A DNA stretch of 64,000 nt from an uncultured Candidatus Saccharibacteria bacterium. Lineage in GTDB: Bacteria; Patescibacteriota; Minisyncoccia; Phycocordibacterales; SBAW01. The stretch lies in contig CAZMIU010000001.1 in NCBI GenBank assembly GCA_964566795.1, forward strand, positions 150,764 through 214,763, in the 5' to 3' direction. This document shows, one piece after another, positions 17,282 through 49,340 of the stretch; the stretch's first letter is position 1, and each line of letters begins with the position of its first letter. The notes under the pieces were generated by a model. It was not told the origin of the DNA. It saw only the letters and a program-made list of their open reading frames with translations, and did no database searches. A program made the position numbers and the translations under genes.

Positions 17282-17962
17282 TTAGAGCCAGTCGATGGGG
17301 GTTTTGTCGTGCTCTTGCAGGTACTCGTTGGTTTTTGAGAACGGCCTGGAGCCGAAGAAGCCTGTGTGGGCTGCAAAGGGAGATGGGTGCGGAGATTCTA
17401 TAACACAATGCTTGCTGCGGTCTATGTGTGCGCCTTTTTGCTTGGCATAGTTGCCCCAGAGGATAAACACCAGGTGCTCGCGCTGGTCGTTGAGAGCTTT
17501 GATAACCGCATCTGTAAACTGCTCCCAGCCGCGGTGTTGGTGGCTGCCTGGAGACTGCGCCCGCACCGTAAGCGTGGCGTTGAGCATCAAAACCCCTTGG
17601 GTGGCCCAGCGCCCCAGGTCTCCGGAGTTCCGCAAGGTCGAACCTTGCGGAACAGGGCCAAGGTCATGTTCCAACTCTTTGTATATATTTTGGAGCGACG
17701 GGGGCAGGCGCACACCCTCTGGTACCGCAAATGACAGGCCGTTGGCCTGCCCTGCCCCGTGGTATGGGTCCTGGCCCAGTATCACGACTTTTACATTGTC
17801 AAAAGGTGTTAATTCAAATGCCCTAAAGATAAACTTGGGAGGCGGATACATCACTCCGGCTTTGTACTCCGCCTTAACAAACTGAACCAGTGACTTAAAA
17901 TATGGTTTGCCAAACTCCTCCTCCAGAACTTTCTTCCAGCTTGGCTCCAGCTTTACATCCAT
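17282..17962 (-). CDS. ung: Uracil-DNA glycosylase (family 1)
   Basis: GQDPYHGAGQANGLSF water-activating loop and HPSPF-like C-terminal motif. Confidence 0.9.
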   Translation of the reverse strand: MDVKLEPSWKKVLEEEFGKPYFKSLVQFVKAEYKAGVMYPPPKFIFRAFELTPFDNVKVVILGQDPYHGAGQANGLSFAVPEGVRLPPSLQNIYKELEHDLGPVPQGSTLRNSGDLGRWATQGVLMLNATLTVRAQSPGSHQHRGWEQFTDAVIKALNDQREHLVFILWGNYAKQKGAHIDRSKHCVIESPHPSPFAAHTGFFGSRPFSKTNEYLQEHDKTPIDWL

Positions 17963-17964
17963 AG

Positions 17965-18282
17965 CTACCTCAAAAATCCCTCTTCGCGCAATAACTTGGT
18001 CTTACGCGCCTGCCCGCCGCGGTTGTAGTCGCCTATGCGGCCATCACTGCGCACCACGCGGTGGCACGGGATGCCGGGCCGGTAGTTGTGCGACATAATA
18101 GTGCCCACGGCGCGCGCGGCACCCGGTTTGCCTGCGCGGCGCGCCACCTCGCCATAGGTCATGGTTGTGCCTTTGGGGATATTCGCAACTATCGCGTACA
18201 CCTTGGTAGCAAAAGGCGTCTCAAATACTTTTTCGGCCTTCTGCGGCTTTGTGTTAGAAGAGTGTGCCGGTGCTTTCCTCAT
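17965..18282 (-). CDS. ogt: Methylated-DNA-protein-cysteine methyltransferase, short form with DNA-binding/active-site domain only
   Basis: Active-site PCHRVV motif and surrounding helix-turn-helix. 105 aa, so the N-terminal domain is absent. Confidence 0.75.
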   Translation of the reverse strand: MRKAPAHSSNTKPQKAEKVFETPFATKVYAIVANIPKGTTMTYGEVARRAGKPGAARAVGTIMSHNYRPGIPCHRVVRSDGRIGDYNRGGQARKTKLLREEGFLR

Positions 18283-19102
18283 ACGCTATTTTCTTATTTT
18301 TAACAGGAGCAGATTCAGGGATGTCTACTTTGCGCTGTGATGATTGCTTGCGCTCACGTAGCGCCTTCCCCGCAGCTTCGCGGTAGCGGCAGTAGTCGCA
18401 GTCCGCGCCTGCGGCGGGGATCTCTTGGCTGTCGGCGCACTCTTTAAGGGCCAGCAGGGTCGGCTCCACCCAGGAGGTGTCGCCCTTGTGGGCGATGAGC
18501 GTCATTTCAAACTCGAGTTTGGCGTCAAACGCAGCCGGCTCCTTGCTTGCGTTTGCATACACCCAGTAGCCTGTGTCGGATACCTTAAAGCCGTTCTGGC
18601 GCAGGAGCCACTGATAGGTCTCCATTTGTCGCTTATAGCCGTCGTGCCACTCCTCGTCGAGGCTGTCTATTTTCTTGTCCTTGCTGGTGGATTTGTAGTC
18701 GACGACTATCAACTCCCCTGCCGGGTTTACCCATATATCGTCCACCGCGCCCGCTACCGTAAATCCTGTTGCCGGATGCTTGTACTCCACACCCTTGAAG
18801 TTCTCGCGCCACACATCAAGCTGCGGGTGGCTAAACGGCACCGCGTCTACGCCGTACTCGTCGCACAATGCATGCGCCCTGCCCTCTGCGCGCAAAGCAT
18901 CAAACTCTTTCTTAAGCAAAGCGTCTACCGCCGAGTTGAGGTTAAACGGGAAGCCCGGCGGGCGGGCCACACCCAATACATTGTCTACATAAAAGCAGCG
19001 CGGGCACTCCATAAAGAGCGCGATTTTGCTGCGCGAGAGGCGCCATTTGGGCCCGCCATAGTTCCAGTCGGGTTTGCGGTTTGGTTTATAGAAAAGGCTC
19101 AC
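18254..19102 (-). CDS. PD-(D/E)XK nuclease, Cas4/RecB-nuclease-like with four Cys (putative Fe-S)
   Basis: VVDYKSTSK plus downstream E/K-type PD-(D/E)XK core, with an N-terminal CPRC and a C-terminal CDYC. The start overlaps the ogt-like gene by 29 nt. Confidence 0.55.
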   Translation of the reverse strand: MSLFYKPNRKPDWNYGGPKWRLSRSKIALFMECPRCFYVDNVLGVARPPGFPFNLNSAVDALLKKEFDALRAEGRAHALCDEYGVDAVPFSHPQLDVWRENFKGVEYKHPATGFTVAGAVDDIWVNPAGELIVVDYKSTSKDKKIDSLDEEWHDGYKRQMETYQWLLRQNGFKVSDTGYWVYANASKEPAAFDAKLEFEMTLIAHKGDTSWVEPTLLALKECADSQEIPAAGADCDYCRYREAAGKALRERKQSSQRKVDIPESAPVKNKKIAYEESTGTLF

Positions 19103-19134
19103 CGCACTATTCTATCTTAAAAGGGCCTCCGGGC

Positions 19135-19596
19135 CTATTCTGCCTTGCCATAGCGGCGCCGCAGGCGGTTCTCGAGCTTGGAGAGTATCGTAAAGACAAG
19201 GAGGCCCAGCACTGTAGAGGCCAGCGCCACCGCATAGTAGCCAAACCCTGCCGCCATGCCCACGGCCGCAACAAGCCAGATGCCAGACGCAGTGGTTATC
19301 TCAGCCGCATGCTCGGTGCGCAGGGCAAGGCCGGAACCTATAAAGCCTATACCGATGACTATCGAGGCGGCAATCTGGAGCGGGTTAACGCCAGTAAATG
19401 AGGTCAGCTGGTAGCTGGCCACAAGGCCTGCGACGGTAAAAAGAGCCGATCCTAGCGAGACCAGTGCATACGTGCGCATGCCGGCATGCTTTCCTGCAAG
19501 CGAGCGCTCAAGGCCCATGCACGCACCAAGAATAACGGCAACAACCAGACGGGTAATGATCTCGACCTCTATACTCGACAGTGTAAGTCCTAGCAT
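19135..19596 (-). CDS. mgtC: MgtC/SapB family membrane protein
   Basis: LVVAVILGACMGLERSLAGKHAGMRTYALVSLGSALF is the MgtC family signature. Confidence 0.8.
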   Translation of the reverse strand: MLGLTLSSIEVEIITRLVVAVILGACMGLERSLAGKHAGMRTYALVSLGSALFTVAGLVASYQLTSFTGVNPLQIAASIVIGIGFIGSGLALRTEHAAEITTASGIWLVAAVGMAAGFGYYAVALASTVLGLLVFTILSKLENRLRRRYGKAE

Positions 19597-19616
19597 TGGG
19601 TTATTGTAGCCTATGT

Positions 19617-20240
19617 TTACAGCGCCCTAAATGTTGCCCACAGCGGCCCGCCGTCGGCGTCTGCCATCGGTTTGTCTGCGTTAAGCGAGAAAATGCGGTC
19701 ACCGTTGTCTACCGATAGCCCAACAATATAGGACTGATTGGGCTGCATATTGCGCAAAAGACCCACGCTCCCCTTTGTGTTGCCTGAGAAGTAGAGCCTG
19801 GCGCCGAGCGCGTTCCCCGGCTTGCCCTCACGCGACACATACACAACAACCCACGTGGGTTTTGAGAGGTAGAGGCTTTGTATGACAACGCTGTGCCCGG
19901 CCTTTTGGTCTAGAACGACGAGAGCCTGGGGCGTGTCCGAGGCTGCCTTGGCTTGTGTTGTCGTACTTACTGTGTCCGCAGCCGCTGCGAGGGCATGTGC
20001 AGACGCGCGGCTTTGATGTGTCTTGGCCCAGGCAGTGGCCAAAAGTGCCCCAATGATAATGCCCGCAACAAGGACAGCGGCGTACGCGGGCGCCTGTGTT
20101 GCATACGCCTTCTTGCTGCTTGGAAAGGTTGAGGCAACCTCTGCGTGTGCGTGCGGGGGGCTGTTTTGCGCCGGCAAAGAATCCGCCCGTGGTGGGGCGG
20201 GCGGCAAAGACCACGGCAATCGGGGTTTGTCGTCCGGCAT
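19617..20240 (-). CDS. Hypothetical secreted or membrane-anchored protein
   Basis: ORF 19617-20369. The likely start MPDDKPRLPW at 20238-20240 avoids overlap with the next gene. There is one TM or signal anchor. Confidence 0.4.
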   Translation of the reverse strand: MPDDKPRLPWSLPPAPPRADSLPAQNSPPHAHAEVASTFPSSKKAYATQAPAYAAVLVAGIIIGALLATAWAKTHQSRASAHALAAAADTVSTTTQAKAASDTPQALVVLDQKAGHSVVIQSLYLSKPTWVVVYVSREGKPGNALGARLYFSGNTKGSVGLLRNMQPNQSYIVGLSVDNGDRIFSLNADKPMADADGGPLWATFRAL

Positions 20241-20280: not shown

Positions 20281-21129
20281 CTATTGTACCGTGCCCCTGC
20301 CGTCAGACAATACTCCCGCCTCCTCGAGCACAGAAGCGACCTTTTGCGATGACACGCCCACATCAGCAAGCACCCGGGGGTTGGCCGCTATCTCGCTGCA
20401 CAGGACAATGCGCTTCTCAAGCAATGCCAGCTTTTCCCTCCGACTAAGCGTTGTAAGCGCGGTTATGGGGTAGAGCCCCGCCGCCGCTATGCGGTCATGC
20501 AGGGTGTGGCCGTCGGGCTCATCCCAGCTTAAGAGGTCGAGCCCGGCACATGCAGCATAATGGGTCGCGTGCGTTGTAAACTTGGTGTTAGTTACAAGCA
20601 GCCCGAGCACCACTGTCTTGTCACCGCCCCTTTTTGCGGCATGTGCGGCGCGGATGTCATCCATGCGCGCTTTGACATATAAAGCGGTCTTAAGATCGGT
20701 TTTAAAGCCGGGGCTGTTATGGAACTTGGCCTCCACATATAAAAGCTCATTGCCCTTTTTGGCGACAACATCTACCTCATGCTCGACACACCCGCCCCGT
20801 ATTACCTTGTCTGTCGAGGCCTCCCATCCCTCTGCCCTCAGCAGCGCCGCAATGTATGTCTCAAACGGAAAGCCGGATGGTCCAAAGTCCCACACGGCGC
20901 GTTTGAGCGAATAGCGGGCAGCAATGCCGTGGCGGTGCGCGCGCAGCCTGGCAAAGGCACGACGGTAAATTTCCTGCGTGGTAATGCCGTCAAAAAGCTC
21001 GAGCTCCACCTCTCCCGCAATTTCCTGCGCAGTGGTACGGTCAGCACCCGCGCGGGCGAGCGACCCCAAGAGCTTGCGGTCATCAAAAGTCTCGCGCGTG
21101 CCGTCGGCCTTGGTTATAAGCAGAGCCAT
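20281..21129 (-). CDS. ATP-cone domain fused to Mrr/restriction-endonuclease-like (PD-(D/E)XK) domain
   Basis: N-terminal ITKADGTRETFDDRKL... is ATP-cone-like. The central VEHEVDVVAKKGNELLYVEAKF is an Mrr_cat-like nuclease core. Confidence 0.55.
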   Translation of the reverse strand: MALLITKADGTRETFDDRKLLGSLARAGADRTTAQEIAGEVELELFDGITTQEIYRRAFARLRAHRHGIAARYSLKRAVWDFGPSGFPFETYIAALLRAEGWEASTDKVIRGGCVEHEVDVVAKKGNELLYVEAKFHNSPGFKTDLKTALYVKARMDDIRAAHAAKRGGDKTVVLGLLVTNTKFTTHATHYAACAGLDLLSWDEPDGHTLHDRIAAAGLYPITALTTLSRREKLALLEKRIVLCSEIAANPRVLADVGVSSQKVASVLEEAGVLSDGRGTVQ

Positions 21130-21134: not shown

Positions 21135-22188
21135 TTAGTATACGATTGATTCTTTTATTACTCCCCCGCCAATACAGCGGCCATGTTTATAAAGCACCAG
21201 TGACTGGCCCGCGGGCACCCAATGCGGCTTGTGCAGCGTGACCGTGTTTGCCTCTGCATCAAGCTGTGCCTCGATAAGCTCCTGACGGTAGCGGTAGCGT
21301 GCCATGTATGTGCCGCTGTAAACCTCGCCTATCCAGTTTGTATCGGTTATCTCAACTTTTGTCAGCGTTGCGCCTTGAGGGAACTTGCTTGGCGATACGG
21401 TTATTGTGTTTGCCTCGATATCTTTGGCGATTACGTAGTTGGGCACAGCGTCGGGTGCCTGTGTAGCCAACTCAAAGCCGTGGCGCTGCCCCATGGTGTA
21501 GAGCGCAGCGCCCCGGTGCACTCCCACAACCTCGCCCGCCTCGTTTAACACGCTGCCCGGCATGGGAGTAAGCTCGCGCTCGAGCATATCTGTTATTGAT
21601 ATTGGTCCCAAAAAGCACAGGCCCTGGCTGTCTTTGCGCCCTGCATTAGGGAGACCGAACTTCTGCGCCAGCGTGCGGACTTGCGGCTTGGTGAGGTGTC
21701 CTATCGGGAACAGTACGTGCGCAAGTACATCCTGAGGCACCGCCCACAAAAAGTAGGTCTGGTCTTTGTCTATATCTTTGGACACATACATAAGGCCGTC
21801 TTTAACTTGCGCGTAATGGCCAGTGGCCACAAACTCGGCGCCTTGCGCGCGGGCCCAGTCATAAAAAAGCCCGAACTTAATCTCTTTGTTGCACAGCGTG
21901 TCGGGGTTGGGAGTATGGCCCTGTGCAAACTCCTTTATAGATGCATCAAACACCTTTTGCTGATACTCTCGCGAGAGGTCCACCTCCACAAACGGGATTT
22001 TAAGATGCGCTGCCACGCGCATGGCGTCTATGCGGTCTGCCCCGGCAGTGCACGGGTACCCCTCGACCGTTATTTTTATAAAAGCGCCCACCACCGCATA
22101 GCCCTGTTGTTGCAACAAAGCGGCCGAGGTGGCGGAGTCTACCCCGCCGGAGAGTCCCACGTATACTGTGCCTTTAGGAGTGGTTATC
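21135..22188 (-). CDS. mnmA: tRNA-specific 2-thiouridylase MnmA
   Basis: PP-loop VGLSGGVDSATSAALL and conserved catalytic Cys region. The ORF track extends to 22337, but the N-terminal 50 aa are low-complexity and overlap a terminator. Start set at GTG about 22186-22188, which is uncertain. Confidence 0.85.
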
Positions 22189-22211
22189 ACACGTCTGTTA
22201 TAGCGCGGATG

Positions 22212-22245
22212 CGCAAAAAGAAAAACCCCGGCGTAAGCCGGAGTC
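22212..22245 (-). terminator. Hairpin plus T-run downstream of mltG
   Basis: Minus strand: ccggcttacgccgg hairpin followed by ggtttttcttttt. Confidence 0.5.
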
Positions 22246-22254
22246 TTTTGAGGA

Positions 22255-23315: not shown

Positions 23316-24737
23316 TTATGTGGGTAGGTTAATGGGAGCATCCGAGCGCCTCGACGGCACACGGTCAAGCGCCGGCGTCACTACAACCGATGATGGGAAG
23401 TGCCATAGGGTGGCAAGCTCCTCGGTTGTAAGGTAGGTGGGCACCTGGTCGTACGGGACATAGAAGTAGGCGCGGTATTTGTACCTAAAGAACAGGTTGC
23501 GCTTGACCCGGTTCTCGCGTATGCCGCCCCAGTCCTGCCATGGGAAGTCAAAGTCGGTGAGACCGCGCGCCGCGCCAATGGAGTTAAAGTCCGGGTAGCG
23601 GTACGCGTCAAAAAAGCGCACCACCTGGCCGTTTGTGATGCCCACGGTTGCCTCCTTTTTGCTTACGTACAATACGCGTATCCCGCACTCAAATACGTTT
23701 TTGGTGAGTGCGCGTTCGATAGCCTCCACCCTGAGCTTTTCTCCACCGGAGAGGAGTGTGGAGCCGCGCTGGCCCACCTTCTTCTTCTCGGCCTCGTCCT
23801 CTACAAAACTCTTTGCACGCTCAATAGCACCTTTTGTAATCTTTTTTATCTCTTCCTGGGCCTCAACTTTGTAGTGCTGGTCACCCGATTTATAAAAGCC
23901 GTACCACTCGTCTTTTTTTGGGGCTTTCATGATGATCTGCAGCCACAGATGCTCCCCCGGCCCCACATGGCCCAACAGCTCAAGGAGGTTTGTTATAGGG
24001 TCCACCTGTATCTCGGGGGTATCCGGGTTTTTGTCCAGCCCGTAGTCCACATAGGTCTTGATGGGCATAATCTGCGGCGCGCCTTTTTGGTACTCAATGC
24101 CAAAGAGGTTGTAGTCGTCGGTATTAAAGGGCACCCTGGCGGCATAATCCTCCACCACTGTCACGCGCGCCTCGGGGAACTGGCCATACAGCCTAGCCTC
24201 GATGATATTTTTAAACCCTTTGCGCAGGTGGATGTAGTACTTGATCTGGCCCTCGTTGCTCGCTATCTCGAGTGAAAATACGGCGCGAAACTGCCCCTTC
24301 CAGATACGGGCAATAAACGTGCTCTCGCCGCCCGAGTTCCACATCGCGGTTAAAAAAAGCTCCATCGCCAGGGGCGACTTCTGCACTTCCGGCGGCAACT
24401 GCACCTCCAAGAGCACATACTCCTGGTTGAACCAGAACATGTAGCGCAGGTAGTGTATCCACGTAATCCAAAACCCCACCGCAAGACCGATGGGCAGCCA
24501 TATGGGAGAGAGCGCGACGGTCATGGCGAGTGTTGCTGAGAGTGCCTCGCGGTCCACAGCGGCAACCACAAGCACGAGGATAAAAAATGCGATGGGTATA
24601 ACGACGAGCGGCTCGAACGACCACGCATAAATCACCTTTTCTGATATGTATTTGGCGCCGTCGTGCGTCCAGAGAAGAAAAATCTTCTTATACCAAGGTT
24701 TCTTATCAAAAGGCTCGCCGCCCCCACCTGATGCCAT
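23316..24737 (-). CDS. Hypothetical 2-TM membrane protein with large conserved C-terminal domain
   Basis: ORF 23316-24839. Start likely ATG 24735-24737 (MASGGGGEPF), directly preceded by ggtataat on the minus strand. No recognisable family. Confidence 0.5.
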   Translation of the reverse strand: MASGGGGEPFDKKPWYKKIFLLWTHDGAKYISEKVIYAWSFEPLVVIPIAFFILVLVVAAVDREALSATLAMTVALSPIWLPIGLAVGFWITWIHYLRYMFWFNQEYVLLEVQLPPEVQKSPLAMELFLTAMWNSGGESTFIARIWKGQFRAVFSLEIASNEGQIKYYIHLRKGFKNIIEARLYGQFPEARVTVVEDYAARVPFNTDDYNLFGIEYQKGAPQIMPIKTYVDYGLDKNPDTPEIQVDPITNLLELLGHVGPGEHLWLQIIMKAPKKDEWYGFYKSGDQHYKVEAQEEIKKITKGAIERAKSFVEDEAEKKKVGQRGSTLLSGGEKLRVEAIERALTKNVFECGIRVLYVSKKEATVGITNGQVVRFFDAYRYPDFNSIGAARGLTDFDFPWQDWGGIRENRVKRNLFFRYKYRAYFYVPYDQVPTYLTTEELATLWHFPSSVVVTPALDRVPSRRSDAPINLPT

Positions 24738-24792
24738 GCTAGTATTATACCCCAGGAGGAGCACCCGCCTCCCACTGTAGAGAACAGCACCT

Positions 24793-25134
24793 ATGCAGCC
24801 AAACGAGCTGAATAACTTTGATACGCTTGAGCGCAACATAGACGCATTTAATGCCGCTGTCGGTCAGGGGTTTTGGGATATTGTGTTTGCCCACCCCATG
24901 ACCTACCTCGGGTACGCGTTTGCGCTTGTGGCGGCGATAGGCTTCATCATATTTTTGGCTGGCCTGGGCGCCGGGCTCCCCAAAGTGTTTACCATGGACT
25001 GGCACGACGAGCACCAGGAGCATCACCGCGTGCGCGTGACCTGGGGCTTTTTTATACTCTTGTATGTGTTTATCGTCTGGGAGATAGTGCGCTGGATCCT
25101 GGGCGGTGTGCTCGGATTGTTTGGTGCACAATAA
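24793..25134 (+). CDS. Hypothetical small membrane protein
   Basis: Two hydrophobic helices, divergent from the 23316-24737 gene, followed by the structured element. Confidence 0.45.
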   Translation: MQPNELNNFDTLERNIDAFNAAVGQGFWDIVFAHPMTYLGYAFALVAAIGFIIFLAGLGAGLPKVFTMDWHDEHQEHHRVRVTWGFFILLYVFIVWEIVRWILGGVLGLFGAQ

Positions 25135-25222: not shown

Positions 25223-26278
25223 CTATTTCACAAGCGTGAATGCTCCGTCTTTGCCGCGTTTGAAATATTTCTGGTTCTGGAGGTTGACCACAATCGTGCC
25301 CGGCTTAACATGGCGCTCTTTGAGCACCTCCTTAACTATCTCGTCGCGGGTCATGGGGCCGCTCTTGCGCAGTATGTCGCGGATAACGTCGCGCACGACG
25401 CCAGTGGTGTAGCCCCACTCCTTAAGCGCGTACATGCCGCGGCCCACCAGGACAAAGCGGTCATCCTTAATAAGCTCGTTGTGGGTAGTGGCCACGTGTG
25501 CGGCGCGGTTAAACATCTTCTCAATCAGGCCCGACACCTCGCGGAAGTGGAGCGGAGAGCCGTGCTTTTTAACTGCCAGGTAGGCGTAGTCGCGGATACC
25601 CTTGGTCTTAACGTTTTGGGAATGTGCCTGGCCCCACTCGCCCAGGGGGTTTTTACCTATACCCTTTGAGATTGCAAGCCAGCGGCGCAATACCTCCTCG
25701 TTGCGGTGCTTGTCGTTAAGCGTCTGGAGCTCCTTGAGAAAGCGGTCTATCATCTCGCCCTCCGGGATAAGGTCCTCGTCAGAGAGGCCGGAGTAGAGCG
25801 ACTTGAGCGCTCCCTCCACCTTCTGGGCCAAGTCGGGGTCTACATACCAGCAGCGGTTAACCTCATCATCCTCCTTGCGGAATTTAAACGGGTCTCCCAA
25901 AACAAGCAAAAAATAGATGTGGTTCTGCATCGACTTGTCCTTGGTCATAAAATTGAGCAGGTCGTCCTCGCAGACAATGCCGCCCAGACCGTCGATGATG
26001 CGCTCGAGCTCCTCAAATGCGTCCTGTGCCCCGCCAAACGCCGGCGACTTCTTAAGGGCGCCAAGTGCATGGTTCTCAATCTGGCGAACACGCTCGCGGG
26101 TTATGCCGTAGCGCTTGCCGATGGCCTCCAGCGTTACGCGCTCGGGAGAGTCACCCAGCCCAAAGCGGGCCTCAAGCACGGTGCGGGAGCGCTCTGGGAG
26201 CGAGGCAAGAAGCTTTTTGACAATTGCCTTAGGCTTAAAACCTGTCTTGTCCGCCGTGGAAGTTGATGAGGGTGCCAT
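25223..26278 (-). CDS. Hypothetical DNA-binding protein: N-terminal sigma-70 region-4-like HTH plus C-terminal winged-helix-like domain
   Basis: Residues about 30-80 (TVLEARFGLGDSPERVTLEAIGKRYGITRERVRQIENHALGALKK) are a textbook sigma70_r4 motif, but at the N-terminus. There are no region 2 or 3 motifs. Confidence 0.55.
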   Translation of the reverse strand: MAPSSTSTADKTGFKPKAIVKKLLASLPERSRTVLEARFGLGDSPERVTLEAIGKRYGITRERVRQIENHALGALKKSPAFGGAQDAFEELERIIDGLGGIVCEDDLLNFMTKDKSMQNHIYFLLVLGDPFKFRKEDDEVNRCWYVDPDLAQKVEGALKSLYSGLSDEDLIPEGEMIDRFLKELQTLNDKHRNEEVLRRWLAISKGIGKNPLGEWGQAHSQNVKTKGIRDYAYLAVKKHGSPLHFREVSGLIEKMFNRAAHVATTHNELIKDDRFVLVGRGMYALKEWGYTTGVVRDVIRDILRKSGPMTRDEIVKEVLKERHVKPGTIVVNLQNQKYFKRGKDGAFTLVK

Positions 26279-26340: not shown

Positions 26341-29151
26341 TCAAGCAACCACAAGCGTCACTATTTTGCCCTTAACATAGAGAGCTTTTTGCTCCTGTTT
26401 GCCCTCAAGCCACTTGCCCGCTGCAGTGCGGGCCTGGGCCAAAATCGCCTCCTCCGTATCGCTCAGATTGACAGAAATAGTGGCACGCACCTTGCCGTTA
26501 ACCTGCACAGCAATGGTTGCAGTATCTGCCAGCAGCCTCGACTCATCGTACGCAGGCCACGAGGCACAAGAGACTCCATAGAACTCTGCAAGCTCCGAGG
26601 CCATGTGCGGCGCAAGCGGATGCAAAAGCTGTATAAATGTGGCATACGAGCCCTTTGGTACCCCCGCCTCATCAAGCTCCTTAAGCGCGATCATGAGCGC
26701 CGATATGGCGGTGTTAAACTTGAGAGCCTCGAGGTCCTCTGTCACCTTTTTGATCACAGGGTCCATGACAATGTCCAAGGCGTCTGTTGGCTCGAGCCTC
26801 CAGACTTTGTCTAAAAAGCGGCGGATGCCAAGAATATTTTTGGTGCTCCACGGCTTCATGGTCTCAATCGGGCCCATAAACATCTCATACATACGCAGTG
26901 TGTCTGCGCCGTACTCTTTAACCACATCATCTGGGTTAATAACGTTGCCCTTGGACTTGCTCATCTTGCTGCTATCCTCGGCCAAAATGATGCCCTGGTG
27001 CCTGAGCTTTTTAAACGGCTCGCCAAAGCTTATTACCCCATGCTTTTGGAGTGCTTTAGTAAAGAAGCGCGCGTACAAAAGGTGGAGCACCGTGTGCTCG
27101 GCGCCGCCCATGTAGAGGTCCACAGGCAGCCAGTTTTTGACCGCCTCTTTGCCCGCAAATTCCTTGTCGTTGCGCGGGTCGGCAAAGCGGTAGTAGTACC
27201 ACGAGGAACAGACAAACGTGTCCATGGTATCAATCTCCGGCCGCCAGCCTTTGCCAAAGATGCGCTCGGTGCGCTCCAAGAGCTCCTTGGACTGCCCCAA
27301 GGGCGAGGTCCCCGTGGGCTTAAACTCTACATCGGTGGGCAGCATCCAGGGCAAATGCTCCTCCGGCACCGGGTGTGCGGTACCCTCCGGGTCGTAGACC
27401 ACCGGTATAGGCGCGCCCCAGTAGCGCTGGCGCGAGATAAGCCAGTCGCGAAGGCGGTAGGTTTTGACCATCTTCCCTCCTACTGCCTCGGTAATCTTTT
27501 TCTTGGCCTCCTCGCTCGGCATGCCGCTAAACTCTCCTGAGTTTATTAGCACACCCGGTCCGGTATAAACATCCCTGCCGGTTTGGACTCTCTCCCATAG
27601 CATCCAAAATTCCGCATGCTGCATGTGCACAGACTCTATCTCTTTGGGCGAAAGCCACTCAACATCGTATTGATCACTCTCCTCTACTGTTACGGGCACT
27701 CGAGTGTCATCTACGAGCTCAAATAAAAAGTGCTCTCCGTGTGTTTGCCGGTTTACATCTTTATGCGCCGCGAAGAAAAAGGCTTCTGTCTCCAACAGGC
27801 TGCGGACAAGACGGATATTCGTGTATCCTGTTTCTTCTGCAATCTCGCGCTTGGCGGCCTCAAGCTTGTCCTCGCCTTCCTCTACCCCGCCCGTAACAAA
27901 CGTGCGCCACCCTGTCTTCTTCCACTTGAGCGTCAGATACTTGTCTGCTTTCGGGTCATAGACTATCGCCAGGATCATGTTGCGCCTGGTATTTTCTTTT
28001 CCCCCGCGCGGCGGGTTGGTCTCATCTACAAGACTCGGCATTACAACTCGCACTATCGGAATATTAAATTTTTGGGCAAACTCGTAGTCGCGCTCGTCGT
28101 GCGCGGGTACGGCCATAATGGCGCCGGTGCCGTACGTCGAGAGCACGTAGTCAGCTATGAAAACTGGAATCTCTTCACGGGTTGCAGGGTTAATGGCCTT
28201 GATGCCCTTAAGCTCGACGCCTGTCTTTTCGCGGCCCTCGGCAGAGCGGTCTATGTCTGACTTATCTTTGGCCTCTTTGGCGTATGCCTCCACTTCATCC
28301 CAGTTGGTGATAGAGGTTTTTAGCTCCGTGACCAAACCATGCTCGGGAGCTACCACCATGTAGGTTGCCCCATAGAGCGTGTCGGGGCGGGTGGTAAATA
28401 CGGTAATTTTTTTGTCGCTGTTTGATATATCAAACACTATTTCAGCCCCTTCACTGCGGCCTATCCAGTTGCGCTGGTTAATTTTGGTAGACTCGGGCCA
28501 GTCTATCTGGTCCAGGTCATCATGGAGCGCGTCGGCAAACTCGGTAATCTTAAAAAACCACTGCTCGAGGTCTTTTTGTATAACCTTGGTGCCGCAGCGA
28601 ACGCACACGCCCTTCTCCCCGCTCTCGGACACTGTCTGCTCGTTGGCGAGCACGGTCTGGTCTTTGGGGCACCAGTTGACCTTTGCAAGCCGCTTGTATG
28701 CGAGCCCGTTGTTGTACAAAAAGAGGAAGAACCACTGCGTCCACTTGTAGTACTCGGGGGTGTGCGCGCCTATCTCGCGATCCCAGTCGTAGGACAGCCC
28801 GAGGCTCTTTATCTGGCGGCGAAAGTTGCCGATGGCGCGGCCGGTGGTCTCCTGCGGTGGCACACCGGTCTTTATCGCGTAGTTCTCGGCGGGCAGGCCA
28901 AACGCGTCCCAGCCCATGGGGTGCATAACGCTTAAGCCCTGCATGCGCTTAAACCGGCTATAGATGTCGGTGGCTGTGTAGCCCTCCACGTGGCCCACAT
29001 GCAGGCCATCTCCTGAGGGATATGGAAACATGTCGAGCACGTAGAGCTTTTTTGAAGTATCTCCTGAGTCGGGTGCGGCAAATGCTTTGGTCTGGTCCCA
29101 ATGGTCCTGCCACTTTTTCTCAATCGAGGAGTGGTCGTATTTGCCTTTCAT
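26341..29151 (-). CDS. leuS: Leucyl-tRNA synthetase with an inserted Nudix hydrolase domain
   Basis: HIGH (HVGHVEGY), editing-domain TTRPDTLYGATY and KMSKS motifs. Residues about 385-500 contain the Nudix box GGVEEGEDKLEAAKREIAEETGY (GX5EX7REUXEEXGU). Confidence 0.95.
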   Translation of the reverse strand: MKGKYDHSSIEKKWQDHWDQTKAFAAPDSGDTSKKLYVLDMFPYPSGDGLHVGHVEGYTATDIYSRFKRMQGLSVMHPMGWDAFGLPAENYAIKTGVPPQETTGRAIGNFRRQIKSLGLSYDWDREIGAHTPEYYKWTQWFFLFLYNNGLAYKRLAKVNWCPKDQTVLANEQTVSESGEKGVCVRCGTKVIQKDLEQWFFKITEFADALHDDLDQIDWPESTKINQRNWIGRSEGAEIVFDISNSDKKITVFTTRPDTLYGATYMVVAPEHGLVTELKTSITNWDEVEAYAKEAKDKSDIDRSAEGREKTGVELKGIKAINPATREEIPVFIADYVLSTYGTGAIMAVPAHDERDYEFAQKFNIPIVRVVMPSLVDETNPPRGGKENTRRNMILAIVYDPKADKYLTLKWKKTGWRTFVTGGVEEGEDKLEAAKREIAEETGYTNIRLVRSLLETEAFFFAAHKDVNRQTHGEHFLFELVDDTRVPVTVEESDQYDVEWLSPKEIESVHMQHAEFWMLWERVQTGRDVYTGPGVLINSGEFSGMPSEEAKKKITEAVGGKMVKTYRLRDWLISRQRYWGAPIPVVYDPEGTAHPVPEEHLPWMLPTDVEFKPTGTSPLGQSKELLERTERIFGKGWRPEIDTMDTFVCSSWYYYRFADPRNDKEFAGKEAVKNWLPVDLYMGGAEHTVLHLLYARFFTKALQKHGVISFGEPFKKLRHQGIILAEDSSKMSKSKGNVINPDDVVKEYGADTLRMYEMFMGPIETMKPWSTKNILGIRRFLDKVWRLEPTDALDIVMDPVIKKVTEDLEALKFNTAISALMIALKELDEAGVPKGSYATFIQLLHPLAPHMASELAEFYGVSCASWPAYDESRLLADTATIAVQVNGKVRATISVNLSDTEEAILAQARTAAGKWLEGKQEQKALYVKGKIVTLVVA

Positions 29152-34799: not shown

Positions 34800-34966
34800 T
34801 GCCAGTGCAGGATATCACTCCGGCCTCCACCTCGTGGTCAGGCGTTCAAAATCGCCGTCGCGATTTTGCCGCACGACCCTGCCTCGCGGTTTTGCCAGTG
34901 CAAAACATCGCTCCGGCTTCCACAAAAGCAGAAAACCACCCGCAGGGGTGGCTTTTCTGTCTTTTG
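34800..34966 (-). repeat. Conserved tRNA-Ala 3'-flank, copy A (terminator hairpin plus ~90 nt shared with 49341-49450, with an internal ~35-nt tandem duplication)
   Basis: About 87 nt are identical to the sequence downstream of the tRNA-Ala(TGC) at 49268, in inverted orientation. It contains the hairpin gccacccctgcgggtgg followed by ttttctgcttttgtgg. Confidence 0.7.
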
Positions 34967-35039
34967 TGGACCCTACCGGGATCGAACCGGTCACCTCTTC
35001 CATGCCATGGAAGCGCTCTACCAAATGAGCTAAGGGCCC
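34967..35039 (-). tRNA. tRNA-Ala (anticodon GGC)
   Basis: Cloverleaf folded by hand: acceptor GGGCCCT/AGGGTCC with G3:U70, anticodon loop AUGGCAU, T-loop TTCGATC, 73 nt, no encoded CCA. Confidence 0.8.
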
Positions 35040-37419: not shown

Positions 37420-39702
<2,283 letters not shown>

Positions 39703-39716
<14 letters not shown>

Positions 39717-41256
39717 GTAGCGATATAAACTTCTCCAACTGCGTCTTGATCTCAGCTTCAGTCTGGTTCACCATGTCACGCGCCTTGGCAATACTTGAGA
39801 GCACCTCCGGGCGCTCGGCATCAAGGTGCGCCAAAAACTTAGCCTCAAACTCGGGCACTTTCTCGACCGGTACTTTCGCCAAGTAGCCGTTGACCGCCGC
39901 ATATATGACCACCGCCTGGCGCTCAAACGGCAGGGGCTCGCCGTTTTTCTGGCGGAGTGTCGCCATCATGCGCTGGCCGCCATCGATGCGACGCTTGGTG
40001 TCCTCGTCGAGATCAGAGGCAAACTGCATAAACGCCTCGAGCTCCCTAAACTGTGCAAGTTCGAGCTTGATGCGGCCGGAGACCTTCTTCATCGCCTTAG
40101 TCTGTGCGGCAGAGCCCACGCGCGACACCGAGTTGCCGGCGTTAATAGCGGGGCGCACACCCTTGTTAAAGAGGTCGGTCTCAAGAAATATCTGGCCATC
40201 GGTAATCGAGATCACGTTGGTGGGCACGTAGGCAGAGATGTCGTTCTCCTGGGTCTCGATAATGGGGAGCGCGGTTAAGGAGCCTCCGCCCAATTCCTTT
40301 GAGAGCTTGGCTGCGCGCTCGAGCAGACGAGAGTGGAGGTAAAAGATGTCGCCCGGGTATGCCTCGCGGCCCGGCGGGCGGCGCAAGAGCAAAGAGAGCT
40401 GGCGGTAGGCCACCGCGTGCTTGGAGAGGTCGTCGTAGATAACGAGCGCATCCTGTCCCTTTTGCATAAAGTACTCGCCTATCGCTGCACCCGCAAACGG
40501 TGCCAGGTACTGCATGGCAGCCGGTGCCGAGGCGCCTGCGTCTACAACTATAGAGTACTCAAGTGCGCCCCGCTCGCGCAGTTTTTGCACCAGGCGCGCG
40601 GTCTTAGACTCCTTCTGGCCGATGGAGACATAGATGCACACGGGGCGCGACTCCGCGGCTTCAGACTTTTGGTTGAGGATGGTGTCTATCGCAATGGTGG
40701 TCTTGCCCGTACCGCGATCGCCGATGATAAGCTCGCGCTGGCCGCGGCCGATCGGGATCATCGAGTCTATAGCCTTGATACCCGTATGCAGAGGCGTGTT
40801 GACCGACTGGCGCTCAATAACGCCGTAGGCCTCGCGCTCAATAGGGTTGCGTGCCTTGGTTTTTATCGCACCCTGGCCATCGAGCGCCTCGCCTAGTGGC
40901 GAGACAACACGGCCCAAGAGCTCCTCGCCCACCGGCAACGAAAGTACCTCGCCCGTAGAAAACACACTCATACCCTCCGACACCAGGCTGGTGTCGCCCA
41001 ATATAATGACGCGCACCGACTCCTCCTCGAGGTTTAACACCACACCGTACACTTCGGCCTTGGTCTCGATGGCGTCTTTAAGCGCCTTGCCATGCGCGAT
41101 ATCAAAGCGAACCATCTCAGACATCTTTGCACCCGCGAGGCCCTCGATCTGTGCTACACCGTCGCCCACACGCACCACAACACCCGCGTCTTTGGGGCGC
41201 GAAGACGGCTCAAAGCCTTGTATCTCTTTTTTAAATTGCTCAATAAAGTTGTTCAT
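39703..41256 (-). CDS. atpA: F1 ATP synthase alpha subunit
   Basis: Walker A GDRGTGKT, 517 aa. Confidence 0.97.
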
Positions 41257-43903: not shown

Positions 43904-43974
43904 CGGGATGTGGTATAATGGTATTACGTACGCTTCGGGTGCGTATAATCCGAGTTCGATTCTCGGCATCCCGA
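43904..43974 (+). tRNA. tRNA-Pro (anticodon CGG)
   Basis: C1:G72, discriminator A73, anticodon loop UUCGGGU, T-loop TTCGATT; 71 nt. Confidence 0.75.
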
Positions 43975-44010
43975 CTAAGTTTCCGACAAAATAAAAGAGG
44001 GTGTGTAGCC

Positions 44011-44037
44011 GGACGTGAGTTCGGTTCTCGGCATCCC
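44011..44037 (+). pseudogene. tRNA-Pro 3'-half duplicate (T-arm plus acceptor)
   Basis: gagttcggttctcggcatcccgact differs from the intact tRNA 3' end at one position. It lies 36 nt downstream of the intact gene. Confidence 0.4.
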
Positions 44038-44057
44038 GACTAGTTTAAGATCCGTTT

Positions 44058-44131
44058 GGGCCCTTAAGCAAAGCTTACTGGCCCGGCGTTCGGTCCAAAT
44101 ACAAGCAAGCTTGTTTTTGGAAACCTCACTT
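44058..44131 (+). pseudogene. Decayed tRNA-Ala-like copy
   Basis: Starts with GGGCCCTTA (identical to the tRNA-Ala 5' end) and spans one tRNA length to the next ttGGGCCCTTA, but cannot be folded into a cloverleaf. Confidence 0.25.
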
Positions 44132-44202
44132 GGGCCCTTAGTTAAGTGGTACAACGGTGCATTCGCATTGCACAGGCGCGAGTTCGATTCTCGCAGGGTC
44201 CA
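44132..44202 (+). tRNA. tRNA-Ala (anticodon CGC)
   Basis: Acceptor GGGCCCT with G3:U70, anticodon loop UUCGCAU, T-loop TTCGATT, discriminator A; 71 nt. Confidence 0.75.
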
Positions 44203-44227
44203 CTAAACATCTGCTACCATAAGGCGC

Positions 44228-45823: not shown

Positions 45824-46398
45824 GAAATGCCAAGTGCGCCAAACAGGTACACAAACGTAAATATGAATATCCAGATGATATCAAGGAAGTGCCAAAACAG
45901 CGCGAGGCACGCAAGCTTGGTCTGTATCCCCTCGCCAAACCCCCTAAACCACACATGGGCTATAACGACACACATCCATATGCTCGCCGCGAGTACATGC
46001 AGCCCGTGCGTACCCAGGAGCGTAAAGAATGCGGAAAGGAATGCGCTTGTATCGGGCCCGTGTCCCTCGCCTACAAGCTTGGCAAACTCATAGACCTCCA
46101 TCCCAAGGAATGCGAGTCCAAGAAATAATGTGAGCTTGAGCAATGCAACAGTCAGCACGCGCCTACGTGCCTGTGCGGCCAGGGTGGCAAGCCCCATGGT
46201 AAAGCTCGAGGTAAGGAGTACAAGCGTTTCTGCGAGCACAAAGGGCATGCTTACCAGGCTCTCTATTGCGGGCCCGCCAAATGTCTCGGGCACAAGCACC
46301 ACATAGGTGGCAAACAGCCCGGCAAACAACACGCAGTCGCTCATGATGTATATCCAGAAGCCGGATGTCACCAGGTCTTTTGTAGTGCGCGTGCTCAT
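45820..46398 (-). CDS. cyoC: Heme-copper oxidase subunit III
   Basis: Five-TM subunit III fold. Confidence 0.8.
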
Positions 46399-48314
46399 AT
46401 GCGTATTGAAATTTCCCTTACTTCTTCAGATACAAACGAGCGCACGACAAAGCATCCAATGCATCCTACAAGGGCAAGCGCTGATAGCCACCAGATATGC
46501 CAGACAATGGCAAACCCGAGGACAACCGCGGCGCCGCCCACAACAAGGCCAAGTGCGCTGGGGGCGGGCATGCGTATCGTGCCCTCCTTCTGTGACATGA
46601 CAAGCGGGGTCCCGTGCTTATGCTCCCAGTATGCGTCGCGCCCGTGCACGTGCGGTATCGAGGCAAAGTTGTAGGCAGGCGGCGGGCTAGAAGTAAGCCA
46701 CTCGAGCGTGCGGCCGTCGCCCCACGGGTCGTTTCCTGCTGGGTTCTTTTTGCGGTCGCGGACAGACACGTACATCTGTATAGCCTGCATGAGTACGCCC
46801 ACCCCTATCACACACAACCCCACTGCGGCGACAATAAACAGCGGCTGCCACTCGGGTGTCACCACCACTAGGCGGCGCGTGGCTCCCATAAGCCCCAGAG
46901 CGTACAGCGGCACAAACGCCAGCAGGAAGCCCACAAGCCAGCACCAAAACGCGCGCTTGCCCCACACTTCGCTCAGCGTAAATCCAAAGAGTTTGGGGAA
47001 CCAGTACGCAAACCCGGCAAAAAACCCAAACAGTACGCCCCCAATAATCATGTTGTGGAAGTGCGCCACCAAAAACAGCGAGTTATGGAACTGGAAGTCC
47101 ACCCCGGGTATCGACATGAGAACGCCTGTCATGCCGCCCAAGATAAATGTGGAGAGAAAGCCCATGTACCAGAGCATGGGTGTCGCAAAGGTGATGCGCC
47201 CCCTAAACATGGTAAAGAGCCAGTTAAACACCTTGACCCCGGTGGGTATGGCGATCACCATGGTCATAATCCCAAAGAACGCGTTTACATTTGCCCCTGC
47301 ACCCATGGTAAAGAAGTGGTGCACCCACACCACAAACGACAACAGCGCTATGGCCATGGTCGCCAACACCATCGAGGCGTAGCCGAACAGACGCTTTTTT
47401 GAAAACACGGGGACAAGCTCCGAGAATATGCCAAAAGACGGGAGTATTAAGATGTAGACCTCCGGGTGGCCCCACGCCCATATGAGGTTTATATAGAGCA
47501 TCGCGTTGCCGCCCAGGTCGGTGGTAAAAAAGTGCATCCCCAGAACCCTGTCGAGCGAGAGGAGCGCGAGTGTGACCGTGAGTATCGGGAACGCAAATAC
47601 CACGAGTATCATGGAGGCAAGCGTGGTCCAGGCAAACACCGGCATCTTCATAAGAGTCATGCCCGGTGCACGCTCTTTTAAGATCGTTACAATAAAGTTA
47701 ATACCGGCGAGCAATGTGCCCACGCCGGCGATCTGGAGCGCCCATATGTAATAGTCTACCCCTACCCCCGGACTGTACTGGAGCTCGGAGAGCGGCGGGT
47801 ATGCAAGCCACCCTGTAGCGGCAAACTCGCCCGCAACAAGCGATATGTTAAGGAGTATCGCTCCTGCTGCCGTGAGCCAAAATGAGACCGAGTTGAGCAG
47901 CGGGTACGCCACATCGCGCGCACCAATAAGGAGCGGAAGGGCGAGGTTGATGAGCGCAAACATAAACGGCATCGCCACAAAAAAGATCATGATCACGCCA
48001 TGGGCGGTAAATATCTGCGCGTAATGGTCCGGCGACAAGTATCCCTCGCTGCCGGGCAAGCTAATAGCCTGCTGGGCGCGCATCATGGCGGCATCCACCA
48101 TGCCGCGCACAAGCATCACACCGGCAAGCACAAAGTACAGTACGGCAATCTTTTTGTGGTCGAGGCTACAGAGGTATTCGCGGTACAGCCAGCCCCACTT
48201 TTTAGTAATGGTCATTAAGACCACAAACAGGGCGCCACCCAGCACAACCATAAGTTGCGGGACTGTCTCAATGGGCCCGTGTATGAACGCGGCTGGGGTG
48301 AGCAGTCCCAGCAT
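46395..48314 (-). CDS. cyoB: Heme-copper oxidase subunit I (quinol oxidase type)
   Basis: 12+ TM, conserved His ligands (WAHHFF, HHxxxGG region), 639 aa. Confidence 0.95.
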
Positions 48315-49267: not shown

Positions 49268-49340
49268 GGGCCCTTAGCTCATCTGGTAGAGCGCCTCATT
49301 TGCAATGAGGAGGTGACCGGTTCGATCCCGGTAGGGTCCA
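49268..49340 (+). tRNA. tRNA-Ala (anticodon TGC)
   Basis: Acceptor GGGCCCT/AGGGTCC with G3:U70, anticodon loop UUUGCAA, T-loop TTCGATC, 73 nt, no encoded CCA. Confidence 0.8.

What the first reader, a model, noticed from the sequence alone, without database searches (positions are those of the whole stretch)
20281..21129. ATP-cone domain fused to an Mrr-like PD-(D/E)XK nuclease
ATP-cone domains are allosteric ATP/dATP sensors best known from ribonucleotide reductases and NrdR. Here one is fused to a restriction-endonuclease-like catalytic core (EVDVVAKKGNELLYVEAKF). A nuclease gated by the nucleotide pool would be a plausible phage-defence or stress-triggered DNA-cleavage device. It sits in a small cluster of DNA-maintenance genes (ung, ogt-like, Cas4-like nuclease).
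Basis: partly seen in the sequence, partly recalled or inferred. Interest (0 to 1): 0.6.

Follow-up and report, generated by a model that had tools for sequence, protein, structure and literature searches.

The report
ATP-cone-gated nuclease, core CPR gene
This gene really does fuse an ATP/dATP-sensing "ATP-cone" to an intact restriction-type nuclease, but it behaves as a conserved chromosomal housekeeping or stress gene rather than a phage-defence gene, and nobody has yet tested what it does.

Summary

Across 143 diverse relatives the catalytic residues E90, E118, D120, E133 and K135 are invariant. The cone's K7, K19 and K/R76 are 94-99% conserved, and the cone-nuclease linker is the most conserved segment.

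The defence reading is not supported:
- No meaningful PADLOC match.
- No hit in phage records or viral contigs, and only 2 of 72,556 plasmids.
- Fixed synteny (MnmA-this-DUF7282-MgtC-Cas4-like-Ogt-UDG) in about 130 CPR loci, diverging as slowly as MnmA.

In Bacteroidota and Chlamydiota the homologue heads a cassette: nuclease, beta-CASP hydrolase, AMP-phosphorylase-like enzyme, PRPP synthetase. Usp, a P-type ATPase and fermentation genes flank it. The three partner genes are microoxia-induced in Bradyrhizobium.

Best reading: an adenine-nucleotide-gated endonuclease for nucleic-acid turnover or repair. No paper describing it was found.

The parts
20281..21129 (-). Whole gene: 282-aa three-domain protein (ATP-cone + PD-(D/E)XK nuclease + AF1548-like C-terminal domain)
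   Evidence: ORF; domains; a 100% identical protein, P0001, is on public contigs up to 590 kb. The N-terminus MALLITKADG aligns with the homologues' N-termini, so the start codon is right.
20896..21117 (-). ATP-cone sensor domain, aa 5-78 (NrdR-like; conserved K7, G10, F15, K19, T51, Y73, K76)
20857..20895 (-). Cone-to-nuclease hinge, aa 79-91 (VWDFGPSGFPFET). G83, G86, F89 and E90 are invariant. Together with the last cone helix it forms the most conserved segment of the family.
   Evidence: Segment aa 67-91 has 56% mean identity to the window protein, against 38% for the cone and 43% for the nuclease. Invariant residues. Residues 81-90 are the lowest-confidence interior block of the model (pLDDT 75).
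20527..20874 (-). Mrr_cat / AF1548-type PD-(D/E)XK nuclease domain, aa 86-201
20725..20772 (-). Catalytic core D120...E133-x-K135 (DVVAKKGNELLYVEAK). The codon for helix residue E90 is at 20860-20862.
   Evidence: Translation. E90, E118, D120, E133 and K135 are 143/143 invariant. They correspond to AF1548 D38/E51/K53, predicted catalytic in PMC1821046.
20317..20472 (-). AF1548-like C-terminal helical domain, aa 220-271 (possibly helix-hairpin-helix-like, DNA-binding)
21135..22190 (-). mnmA (tRNA 2-thiouridylase), 5 bp upstream on the same strand; the most persistent neighbour in the CPR lineage
   Evidence: Pfam. Gene limits come from the gene calls in L001. MnmA lies upstream on the same strand within the 5-gene window in 75 of 82 close loci and 43 of 78 distant loci.
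17282..20240 (-). Downstream same-strand block kept with the gene in CPR relatives: DUF7282 (19617-20177 or 19617-20240), MgtC (19135-19596), Cas4-like PDDEXK_1 (18254-19102), Ogt-type domain (17965-18282), UDG (17282-17962)
   Evidence: Pfam and PADLOC; synteny.
22221..22248 (-). Terminator-like hairpin (12-bp stem plus T-run) in the 64-bp gap between yceG and mnmA; possible start of an mnmA-nuclease transcription unit
   Evidence: Consensus scan only; terminator-like sites in the region are not significantly enriched (17 found vs 11.3 +/- 3.4 expected).

Best explanation
The gene encodes a cytoplasmic endonuclease whose activity is switched by adenine nucleotides. An NrdR-like ATP-cone (aa 5-78) is the sensor. 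A highly conserved hinge joins it directly to the helix carrying catalytic E90 of an AF1548/Mrr-type PD-(D/E)XK nuclease. A small helical C-terminal domain probably holds the nucleic acid.

Shown:
- The three domains and their folds.
- An intact, invariant active site.
- Conserved cone lysines at the positions that align with K9 and K21 of E. coli NrdA.
- Cone conservation equal to that of the nuclease.
- Vertical, core-genome inheritance in Paceibacteria-type CPR bacteria.
- Absence from the phage and viral collections searched, and only 2 hits among 72,556 plasmids.

Inferred, by analogy with every studied ATP-cone, is the switching mechanism. Binding of ATP versus dATP (or ATP versus ADP/AMP) changes the oligomeric state or the hinge geometry, and this turns cleavage on or off. 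The enzyme would then cut nucleic acid only in a particular nucleotide-pool or energy state.

The most likely physiological role is regulated nucleic-acid turnover that feeds nucleotide salvage or catabolism. In the sister lineage (Bacteroidota, Chlamydiota) the gene heads a cassette with a beta-CASP hydrolase, an AMP-phosphorylase-like enzyme and a PRPP synthetase, inside low-oxygen or energy-stress gene clusters. In the CPR organism of this window the cassette is absent from the neighbourhood. There the enzyme sits beside DNA-repair genes, so a repair-linked use of the same gated nuclease is the main variant.
For: - Sensor competence: K7 98%, G10 98%, K19 94%, Y73 97% and K/R76 99% conserved. 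hhalign maps K7/E13/K19/T51 to NrdA K9/E15/K21/T55, and A8 to NrdR S54. NrdR cones bind ATP, dATP, ADP and AMP and act through oligomer changes (bioRxiv 10.1101/2025.03.28.645925).
- Active nuclease: E90, E118, D120, E133 and K135 invariant in 143 of 143.
- Coupling: the linker is the most conserved segment.
- Not defence or mobile. Core synteny and a MnmA-like divergence rate.
- Salvage or stress role: cassette and flanks. A cassette partner is found in 12 of 20 non-CPR loci of at least 6 kb. The TP-like partner passes the archaeal phosphorylase models and scores 494 bits vs the 535 cut-off for AMP phosphorylase. bll3115-3117 are induced in 0.5% O2 at protein and transcript level (PMC6515984). 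Nucleoside/AMP catabolism is documented in CPR lineages (PMC5113843).
Against: - There is no biochemical evidence for this family. Nucleotide binding, the identity of the ligand, the direction of the switch and the substrate are all inferred.
- The canonical Arg of the K-R-D-G cone motif is Ala or Ser here (R in 5 of 143), and E13 is only 68% conserved.
- The cassette context belongs to a separate clade at 40-46% identity. None of its partners occurs in 129 CPR-type loci apart from one P-type ATPase, so transferring the physiological role to this window is weak.
- In the CPR the stable neighbours are a tRNA-modification gene and DNA-repair genes, which fit a repair or RNA role at least as well.
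- A monomer model cannot show oligomerisation.
- Operon boundaries are uncertain. The hairpin at 20183-20204 may lie inside the next gene if that gene starts at the ATG at 20240.
Confidence: 0.5

Rival explanations
1. DNA-repair or recombination nuclease. A NucS/Hjc-like structure- or lesion-specific endonuclease works with the neighbouring Cas4-like nuclease, Ogt and UDG. The cone licenses incision only when dNTPs or ATP are available for resynthesis.
Against: The NucS N-terminal mismatch-binding domain is absent. The repair genes are absent from all cassette-type contexts. Linkage within one CPR lineage with strong general synteny counts as a single phylogenetic observation.
Confidence: 0.2
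2. Anti-phage or abortive-infection nuclease that fires when infection perturbs the ATP/dNTP pool.
For: The sensor-plus-PD-(D/E)XK architecture mirrors the defence effectors Can2, Card1, Cdn1 and NucC, which appear among the fold matches. A weak PADLOC hit matches the Mrr part of ZorD (E 0.0029), and the Mucilaginibacter homologue gives a CARF_PDDEXK hit at 1.8e-06. An AbiE toxin-antitoxin pair lies about 8 kb away on the Criblamydia plasmid.
Against: There is no full-length PADLOC family. The position in the core genome is fixed across about 130 CPR loci, and divergence is as slow as MnmA's. No phage records or viral contigs carry it, and only 2 of 72,556 plasmids do. The neighbours are housekeeping, repair or metabolic genes, not defence genes.
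Confidence: 0.08
3. RNA-directed nuclease (tRNA, rRNA or mRNA turnover) functionally tied to MnmA in the CPR and to the beta-CASP ribonuclease-like partner elsewhere.
For: mnmA is the most persistent neighbour: 5-bp gap here, overlapping in some relatives, directly upstream in most loci. The beta-CASP partner resembles the aCPSF1 ribonuclease. RNA is the largest nucleotide reserve for a salvage pathway.
Against: Most close structural relatives are DNA nucleases. The C-terminal domain hints at HhH-type DNA binding. There is no MnmA linkage outside the CPR.
Confidence: 0.12
4. The cone is a degenerate, purely structural or oligomerisation module that no longer senses nucleotides, so the protein is a constitutive nuclease or only a DNA-binding protein.
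For: The canonical Arg of K-R-D-G is missing and E13 is variable. RNRs with non-functional cones that still match the Pfam profile are known (PMC4390871).
Against: K7, K19 and K/R76 are 94-99% conserved, and the cone is as constrained as the nuclease. E. coli NrdR also has Ser at the Arg position and still binds nucleotides. The active site is invariant, so the protein is not merely a binder.
Confidence: 0.1

Closest known systems
AF1548 of Archaeoglobus fulgidus (PDB 1Y88), Pfam Mrr_cat + AF1548-like_C
   Different: AF1548 is 199 aa and has no ATP-cone. It is a structural-genomics entry with no tested function (PMC1821046 only predicts a restriction-type nuclease).
ATP-cones of NrdR and ribonucleotide reductases (PF03477)
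   Same: Same fold and profile. Lysines are conserved at the positions that align with NrdA K9 and K21. Ser/Ala replaces the canonical Arg, as in E. coli NrdR.
   Different: The output domain is a nuclease, not an RNR catalytic subunit or a zinc-ribbon repressor. No ATP-cone-controlled nuclease was found in the literature searched.
Mrr, type IV modification-dependent restriction endonuclease
   Same: It shares the Mrr_cat catalytic domain, including the T-N-T-K-F motif region after the catalytic strands.
   Different: It has no Mrr_N winged-helix DNA-recognition domain. It is not in a defence or mobile context.
CARF/SAVED-nuclease effectors Can2, Card1, Cdn1 and NucC
   Different: The sensor is an ATP-cone, not CARF or SAVED. 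The presumed ligands are ordinary ATP, dATP or ADP rather than cyclic oligoadenylates. There is no CRISPR or CBASS association.
NucS/EndoMS mismatch endonuclease
   Different: It lacks the NucS N-terminal dimerisation and mismatch-binding domain, and it has a cone and an AF1548-type tail instead.

Membership tests
ATP-cone domain (PF03477) | Profile match above the curated threshold | tested here: met
   34.8 bits vs 25.8 for the window protein; 34.0 bits for the Mucilaginibacter homologue.
ATP-cone domain (PF03477) | Fold: helical bundle capped by a small beta-sheet lid | tested here: met
ATP-cone domain (PF03477) | Conserved basic and acidic residues at the nucleotide site (E. coli NrdA K9, R10, E15, K21, K91; residue roles from my own knowledge of the RNR literature) | tested here: inconclusive
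   K7, E13 and K19 align to K9, E15 and K21 and are 98%, 68% and 94% conserved; K/R76 is 99% conserved. The R10 position is Ala or Ser, as in E. coli NrdR S54. The equivalence of K76 to K91 was not aligned directly.
ATP-cone domain (PF03477) | Binds ATP/dATP and changes quaternary structure | not testable with these tools
   Needs ITC or DSF and SEC-MALS on purified protein.
Mrr_cat / PD-(D/E)XK nuclease superfamily | Profile match above threshold and the restriction-endonuclease-like fold | tested here: met
Mrr_cat / PD-(D/E)XK nuclease superfamily | Catalytic motif D...(D/E)-x-K plus a helix glutamate | tested here: met
   E90, D120, E133 and K135 (plus E118) are invariant in 143 of 143 representatives.
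Mrr_cat / PD-(D/E)XK nuclease superfamily | Metal-dependent phosphodiester cleavage | not testable with these tools
   No biochemical data exist for this family or for AF1548.
AF1548 family (Mrr_cat + AF1548-like_C) | C-terminal AF1548-like helical domain after the nuclease | tested here: met
Type IV restriction enzyme Mrr | N-terminal Mrr_N winged-helix domain recognising modified DNA | tested here: not met
   No Mrr_N match; the N-terminus is an ATP-cone.
Known anti-phage defence systems (PADLOC-DB v2) | Full-length match to a defence-system protein model and a defence-island or mobile context | tested here: not met
   Only partial weak hits (ZorD nuclease part, E 0.0029; CARF_PDDEXK, E 0.043). 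The gene sits in core synteny. It is absent from phages and viral contigs and is found on 2 of 72,556 plasmids.
CARF-nuclease effectors (Can2/Card1) | CARF sensor domain binding cyclic oligoadenylate, and association with type III CRISPR | tested here: not met
   No CARF domain. The similarity is confined to the nuclease domain. No cas genes lie nearby apart from a stand-alone Cas4-like nuclease.
NucS/EndoMS | N-terminal NucS dimerisation and mismatch-binding domain | tested here: not met

The most novel reading that the evidence does not exclude
The ATP-cone nuclease is the gated entry step of a previously undescribed pathway that burns the cell's own nucleic acids. When the adenylate or dATP signal changes under oxygen or energy limitation, the pathway would run as follows:
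1. The nuclease opens DNA or RNA.
2. A beta-CASP enzyme trims it to mononucleotides.
3. An AMP-phosphorylase-like enzyme and a PRPP-synthetase-like enzyme release and re-route the ribose phosphate.
4. Phosphoketolase with acetate kinase, or glycolysis, turns it into ATP.

Paceibacteria-type CPR bacteria cannot make nucleotides. They would keep the gated nuclease alone as a core gene that meters nucleic-acid breakdown to their nucleotide pool. This would be the first ATP-cone found to control an enzyme outside ribonucleotide reduction.
Probability: 0.25. Interest if true: 0.8.

Novelty: new variant of a known kind. Interest (0 to 1): 0.55.

Why it matters
ATP-cones are the classic ATP/dATP switch of ribonucleotide reductases and their repressor NrdR. 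The literature searched here describes them only in that setting.

A large family pairs the cone with an intact nuclease. It has at least 432 clusters at 50% identity and spans the CPR, Bacteroidota and Chlamydiota. This implies that cells also couple nucleic-acid cleavage to the nucleotide pool.

For CPR bacteria, which depend on salvaged nucleotides, a core gene of this kind could be a control point of their metabolism.

For other bacteria, the four-gene cassette in low-oxygen and fermentation clusters suggests a testable route from nucleic acid to energy.

The hypothesis can be tested directly. Cultured carriers exist (Mucilaginibacter aquariorum, Pontibacter actiniarum, Criblamydia sequanensis), the protein is small, and a homologous crystal structure is available.

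Tried and rejected
- Defence-system assignment: PADLOC gave only weak partial hits, so I rejected it.
- Mobile or phage origin: no hit in the IMG/VR pattern scan or the phage tblastn, and 2 plasmid hits only. Rejected.
- A Mg2+/cation-transport link (MgtC in the window, P-type ATPase in Mucilaginibacter): the ATPase recurs in 9 of 20 non-CPR loci, but NCBIfam scores it closest to Ca2+-type IIA models, below their cut-offs. MgtC is simply part of the CPR syntenic block. I kept it only as context.
- A bicistronic mnmA-nuclease operon bounded by two terminators: the downstream hairpin (20183-20204) may lie inside the DUF7282 coding region if the ATG at 20240 is used, and terminator-like sites are not enriched. 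Not claimed.
- Single-sequence phmmer of the cone against the PDB found nothing; only the profile reached cones. The top profile hits to designed helical-repeat proteins are low-complexity artefacts.
- Literature: seven of the nine literature searches looked for an ATP-cone-nuclease fusion or for AF1548. They found no functional study.
- The eLife P. copri NrdD paper did not yield a searchable list of cone contact residues.
- The listing of cluster members gave almost no taxonomy for distant representatives.

Full report
**1. The observation**

An ATG-to-TAG ORF of 282 aa occupies window 20281-21129 on the minus strand. Pfam finds:
- ATP-cone at aa 5-78 (34.8 bits, cut-off 25.8);
- Mrr_cat at aa 86-201 (33.2 bits, cut-off 21);

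The quoted peptide is aa 118-136. The nuclease plus tail align to the crystal structure of AF1548 (PDB 1Y88) with E 3.1e-27.

**2. Anatomy and fold**

An AlphaFold2 model built on 59 homologues has mean pLDDT 90 and pTM 0.84.
- Foldseek agrees, and superposes the N-terminal domain on NrdR cones at 1.7-1.9 A.
- A profile of the N-terminal domain alone hits only genuine cones among natural proteins: P. copri NrdD, four NrdR entries and E. coli NrdA. The hits to designed helical repeats are artefacts.
- The residue mapping is K7=K9(NrdA)=K53(NrdR), E13=E15=E59, K19=K21=K65 and T51=T55(NrdA). Position 8, the Arg of the canonical K-R-D-G motif, is Ala here and Ser in NrdR.

**3. Conservation**

The family is large. 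There are more than 4,600 word-index hits. The exhaustive search finds 1,182 representatives at E<=1e-3 and 432 at E<=1e-30. Almost all of the best 150 are 262-300 aa and align over nearly the whole query.

In 143 of these representatives:
- E90, E118, D120, E133 and K135 are invariant;
- K7 (98%), G10 (98%), F15 (90%), K19 (94%), T51 (92%), Y73 (97%) and K/R76 (99%) are kept in the cone.

D120, E133 and K135 are the residues predicted to be catalytic in AF1548 (D38/E51/K53 in PMC1821046).

The cone is as constrained as the other domains. Mean identity to the window protein is 38% for the cone, 43% for the nuclease and 34% for the tail. The last cone helix plus linker (aa 67-91...AARYSLKRAVWDFGPSGFPFE) is the most conserved segment at 56%. 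This suggests that sensor and active-site helix are mechanically coupled. The coupling is an inference.

**4. Context in the window and its lineage**

The window is ordinary core genome of a CPR (Patescibacteria) bacterium. It carries DnaK/DnaJ/GrpE, RpoA, AlaRS, LeuRS, YchF, F1 ATP synthase, UvrABC and TGT. The closest homologues are named Candidatus Adlerbacteria or Paceibacterota.

The gene lies 5 bp after mnmA. It is followed by DUF7282, MgtC, a Cas4-like PDDEXK_1 nuclease, an Ogt-type domain and UDG.

This block, from LeuRS to AlaRS, is retained in relatives down to about 44% identity. Clustering of neighbours in 160 non-identical loci shows:
- MnmA upstream on the same strand in 75 of 82 close and 43 of 78 distant loci;
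- the Cas4-like gene downstream in 67 and 28 loci respectively.

The protein diverges at about the rate of MnmA. This is how a vertically inherited core gene behaves, not a defence-island gene.

**5. Tests of the defence reading**

- PADLOC gives only a weak partial hit to the nuclease part of ZorD (E 0.0029).
- There is no hit in IMG/VR viral contigs or in 50,697 phage records.
- Only 2 of 72,556 plasmids carry a homologue.

The defence reading is therefore not supported.

**6. The sister lineage and its cassette**

Homologues at 40-46% identity occur in Bacteroidota and Chlamydiota. In an NJ tree, all 12 cassette-context proteins and 17 others form one clade that contains no CPR-context members.

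Their contexts differ from the CPR context but repeat among themselves:
- Mucilaginibacter aquariorum: RND efflux, this gene, P-type ATPase (4-bp overlap), DUF1003, TP-like, PRPP synthetase.
- Metagenomic Bacteroidota: Usp, this gene, TP-like, PRPPS, P-type ATPase; or PFK, 2-hydroxyacid dehydrogenase, this gene, P-type ATPase, beta-CASP, TP-like, PRPPS.
- Criblamydia sequanensis plasmid: CusA, P-type ATPase, phosphoketolase, GlgP, ATP-cone protein, MBL, thymidine-phosphorylase family, PRPP synthetase, acetate kinase.
- Pontibacter actiniarum: 2-hydroxyacid dehydrogenase, ATP-cone protein, MBL, TP family, PRPPS.

By tblastn, 12 of 20 non-CPR loci of at least 6 kb carry at least one of these partners. 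Among the 129 CPR-type loci there is only a single P-type ATPase hit.

NCBIfam places the TP-like protein in the archaeal-type phosphorylase models (663 bits vs cut-off 434). It scores just below the AMP-phosphorylase cut-off (494 vs 535). The PRPPS passes NF005537. The ATPase is closest to Ca2+-type IIA models but below their cut-offs.

In Bradyrhizobium diazoefficiens the adjacent trio bll3115 (MBL), bll3116 (PRPPS) and bll3117 (TP family) is induced in 0.5% O2 at protein level (log2FC 2.9, 4.4, 2.1) and transcript level (15.4x, 7.7x, 5.1x) (PMC6515984). I could not check whether an ATP-cone gene lies next to that trio.

**7. Mechanism**

Shown: a cone with its conserved lysines, an invariant active site, a conserved hinge, and a non-mobile genomic status.

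Established knowledge: ATP-cones in RNRs and NrdR bind ATP or dATP, and in NrdR also ADP and AMP. They act by changing quaternary structure (bioRxiv 10.1101/2025.03.28.645925; PMC4390871).

Inferred:
- The cone here reads the adenine-nucleotide pool.
- It switches the nuclease through oligomerisation or hinge movement.
- The biological purpose is regulated nucleic-acid breakdown for salvage or catabolism. The cassette context supports this, and nucleoside/AMP catabolism is documented in CPR lineages (PMC5113843), though I did not test it for this genome.
- The main alternative purpose is nucleotide-licensed DNA repair, which fits the CPR context.

The ligand, the direction of the switch and the substrate are unknown.

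**8. Comparison with known families**

The protein is a member of the AF1548 family and carries true ATP-cone and Mrr_cat domains. It is not:
- an Mrr type IV restriction enzyme (no Mrr_N domain);
- a CARF effector (no CARF domain);
- NucS (no NucS N-terminal domain);
- a PADLOC-listed defence protein.

It works like the CARF-nuclease effectors in outline, as a sensor fused to a PD-(D/E)XK nuclease, but it has a different sensor and presumably ordinary nucleotides as ligands.

Databases already name such proteins 'ATP cone domain-containing protein' or 'restriction endonuclease'. No paper on them was found.

**9. Verdict**

The finding is a new variant of known kinds: an ATP-cone with a new output, or equivalently a sensor-nuclease with a new sensor. 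Interest is moderate to good, because the family is large, conserved, uncharacterised and directly testable in cultured organisms.

Noticed in passing
window 26341-29151 (-), NUDIX part about 27616-27975: The leucyl-tRNA synthetase (936 aa) carries a NUDIX hydrolase domain (PF00293, 52.9 bits vs cut-off 21.1, aa 393-512). It is inserted right after, or within, the editing domain, whose Pfam match is split into two stretches. The Nudix-box-like sequence GGVEEGEDKLEAAKREIAEETGY is present. LeuRS products called in relatives are 762-806 aa, so the insert may be lineage-specific.
   Followed up: partly
L176 8995-13602 (Criblamydia plasmid), L177 1972-6597 (Pontibacter plasmid), L089 7001-14241, L094 6171-12376, L083 6980-13559: A conserved same-strand cassette, often with overlapping stop and start codons: ATP-cone nuclease, beta-CASP MBL hydrolase, archaeal-type thymidine/AMP-phosphorylase-like enzyme, PRPP synthetase. 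It is flanked by Usp, a P-type ATPase, an RND efflux system and fermentation genes (phosphoketolase, acetate kinase, GlgP, PFK, 2-hydroxyacid dehydrogenase). The three partner genes are microoxia-induced in Bradyrhizobium (PMC6515984).
   Followed up: yes
window 25223-26278 (-): A 351-aa protein with Sigma70_r4 plus a weak HARE-HTH match is by far the most conserved gene of the block. It is 77-90% identical in close relatives (54-61% in the most distant ones), where LeuRS, YceG and the nuclease are only 45-65% identical. It also gives a partial PADLOC hit to MzaA (E 9.8e-09, region 4 only).
   Followed up: no
window 46395-48314 (-) and 37420-41256 (-): The window encodes a heme-copper oxidase subunit I (COX1, E 1e-144) and the F1 ATP synthase alpha, gamma and beta subunits. 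This is notable for a small-genome CPR bacterium usually regarded as fermentative.
   Followed up: no
window 23316-24839 (-) and 24793-25134 (+): A 507-aa protein with no Pfam match here (faint DUF8128 in relatives) is conserved throughout the CPR block. A 113-aa opposite-strand ORF between it and the sigma-like gene was called as a gene in L001, L004, L005 and L007. A cluster of about 116-aa opposite-strand ORFs at this position recurs in 27 loci. Both genes are of unknown function.
   Followed up: no
window 20281-21129 (-), residues C114, H117, H137, C194, C244: The family conserves three cysteines and two histidines (95%, 96%, 90%, 95%, 77%) that are not part of the PD-(D/E)XK motif. They may form a metal or redox site. 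The geometry could not be checked.
   Followed up: partly
window 17965-19102 (-): The Ogt-like gene encodes only the 105-aa C-terminal DNA_binding_1 domain, with the PCHR active-site motif. It overlaps the 3' end of the Cas4-like PDDEXK_1 gene by 29 bp. This pair and UDG travel with the ATP-cone nuclease across the CPR lineage.
   Followed up: partly
window 34966-35039, 43904-44203, 49268-49341: Three tRNA-Ala genes with anticodons GGC, CGC and UGC, plus tRNA-Pro(CGG), lie within 15 kb.
   Followed up: no
L164, L130, L173, L142 (metagenomic loci): A third recurrent context for the family: a HAD-family hydrolase directly upstream and a lipoate-protein ligase on the opposite strand downstream, sometimes with a 2-hydroxyacid dehydrogenase. 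The taxon is unknown.
   Followed up: partly
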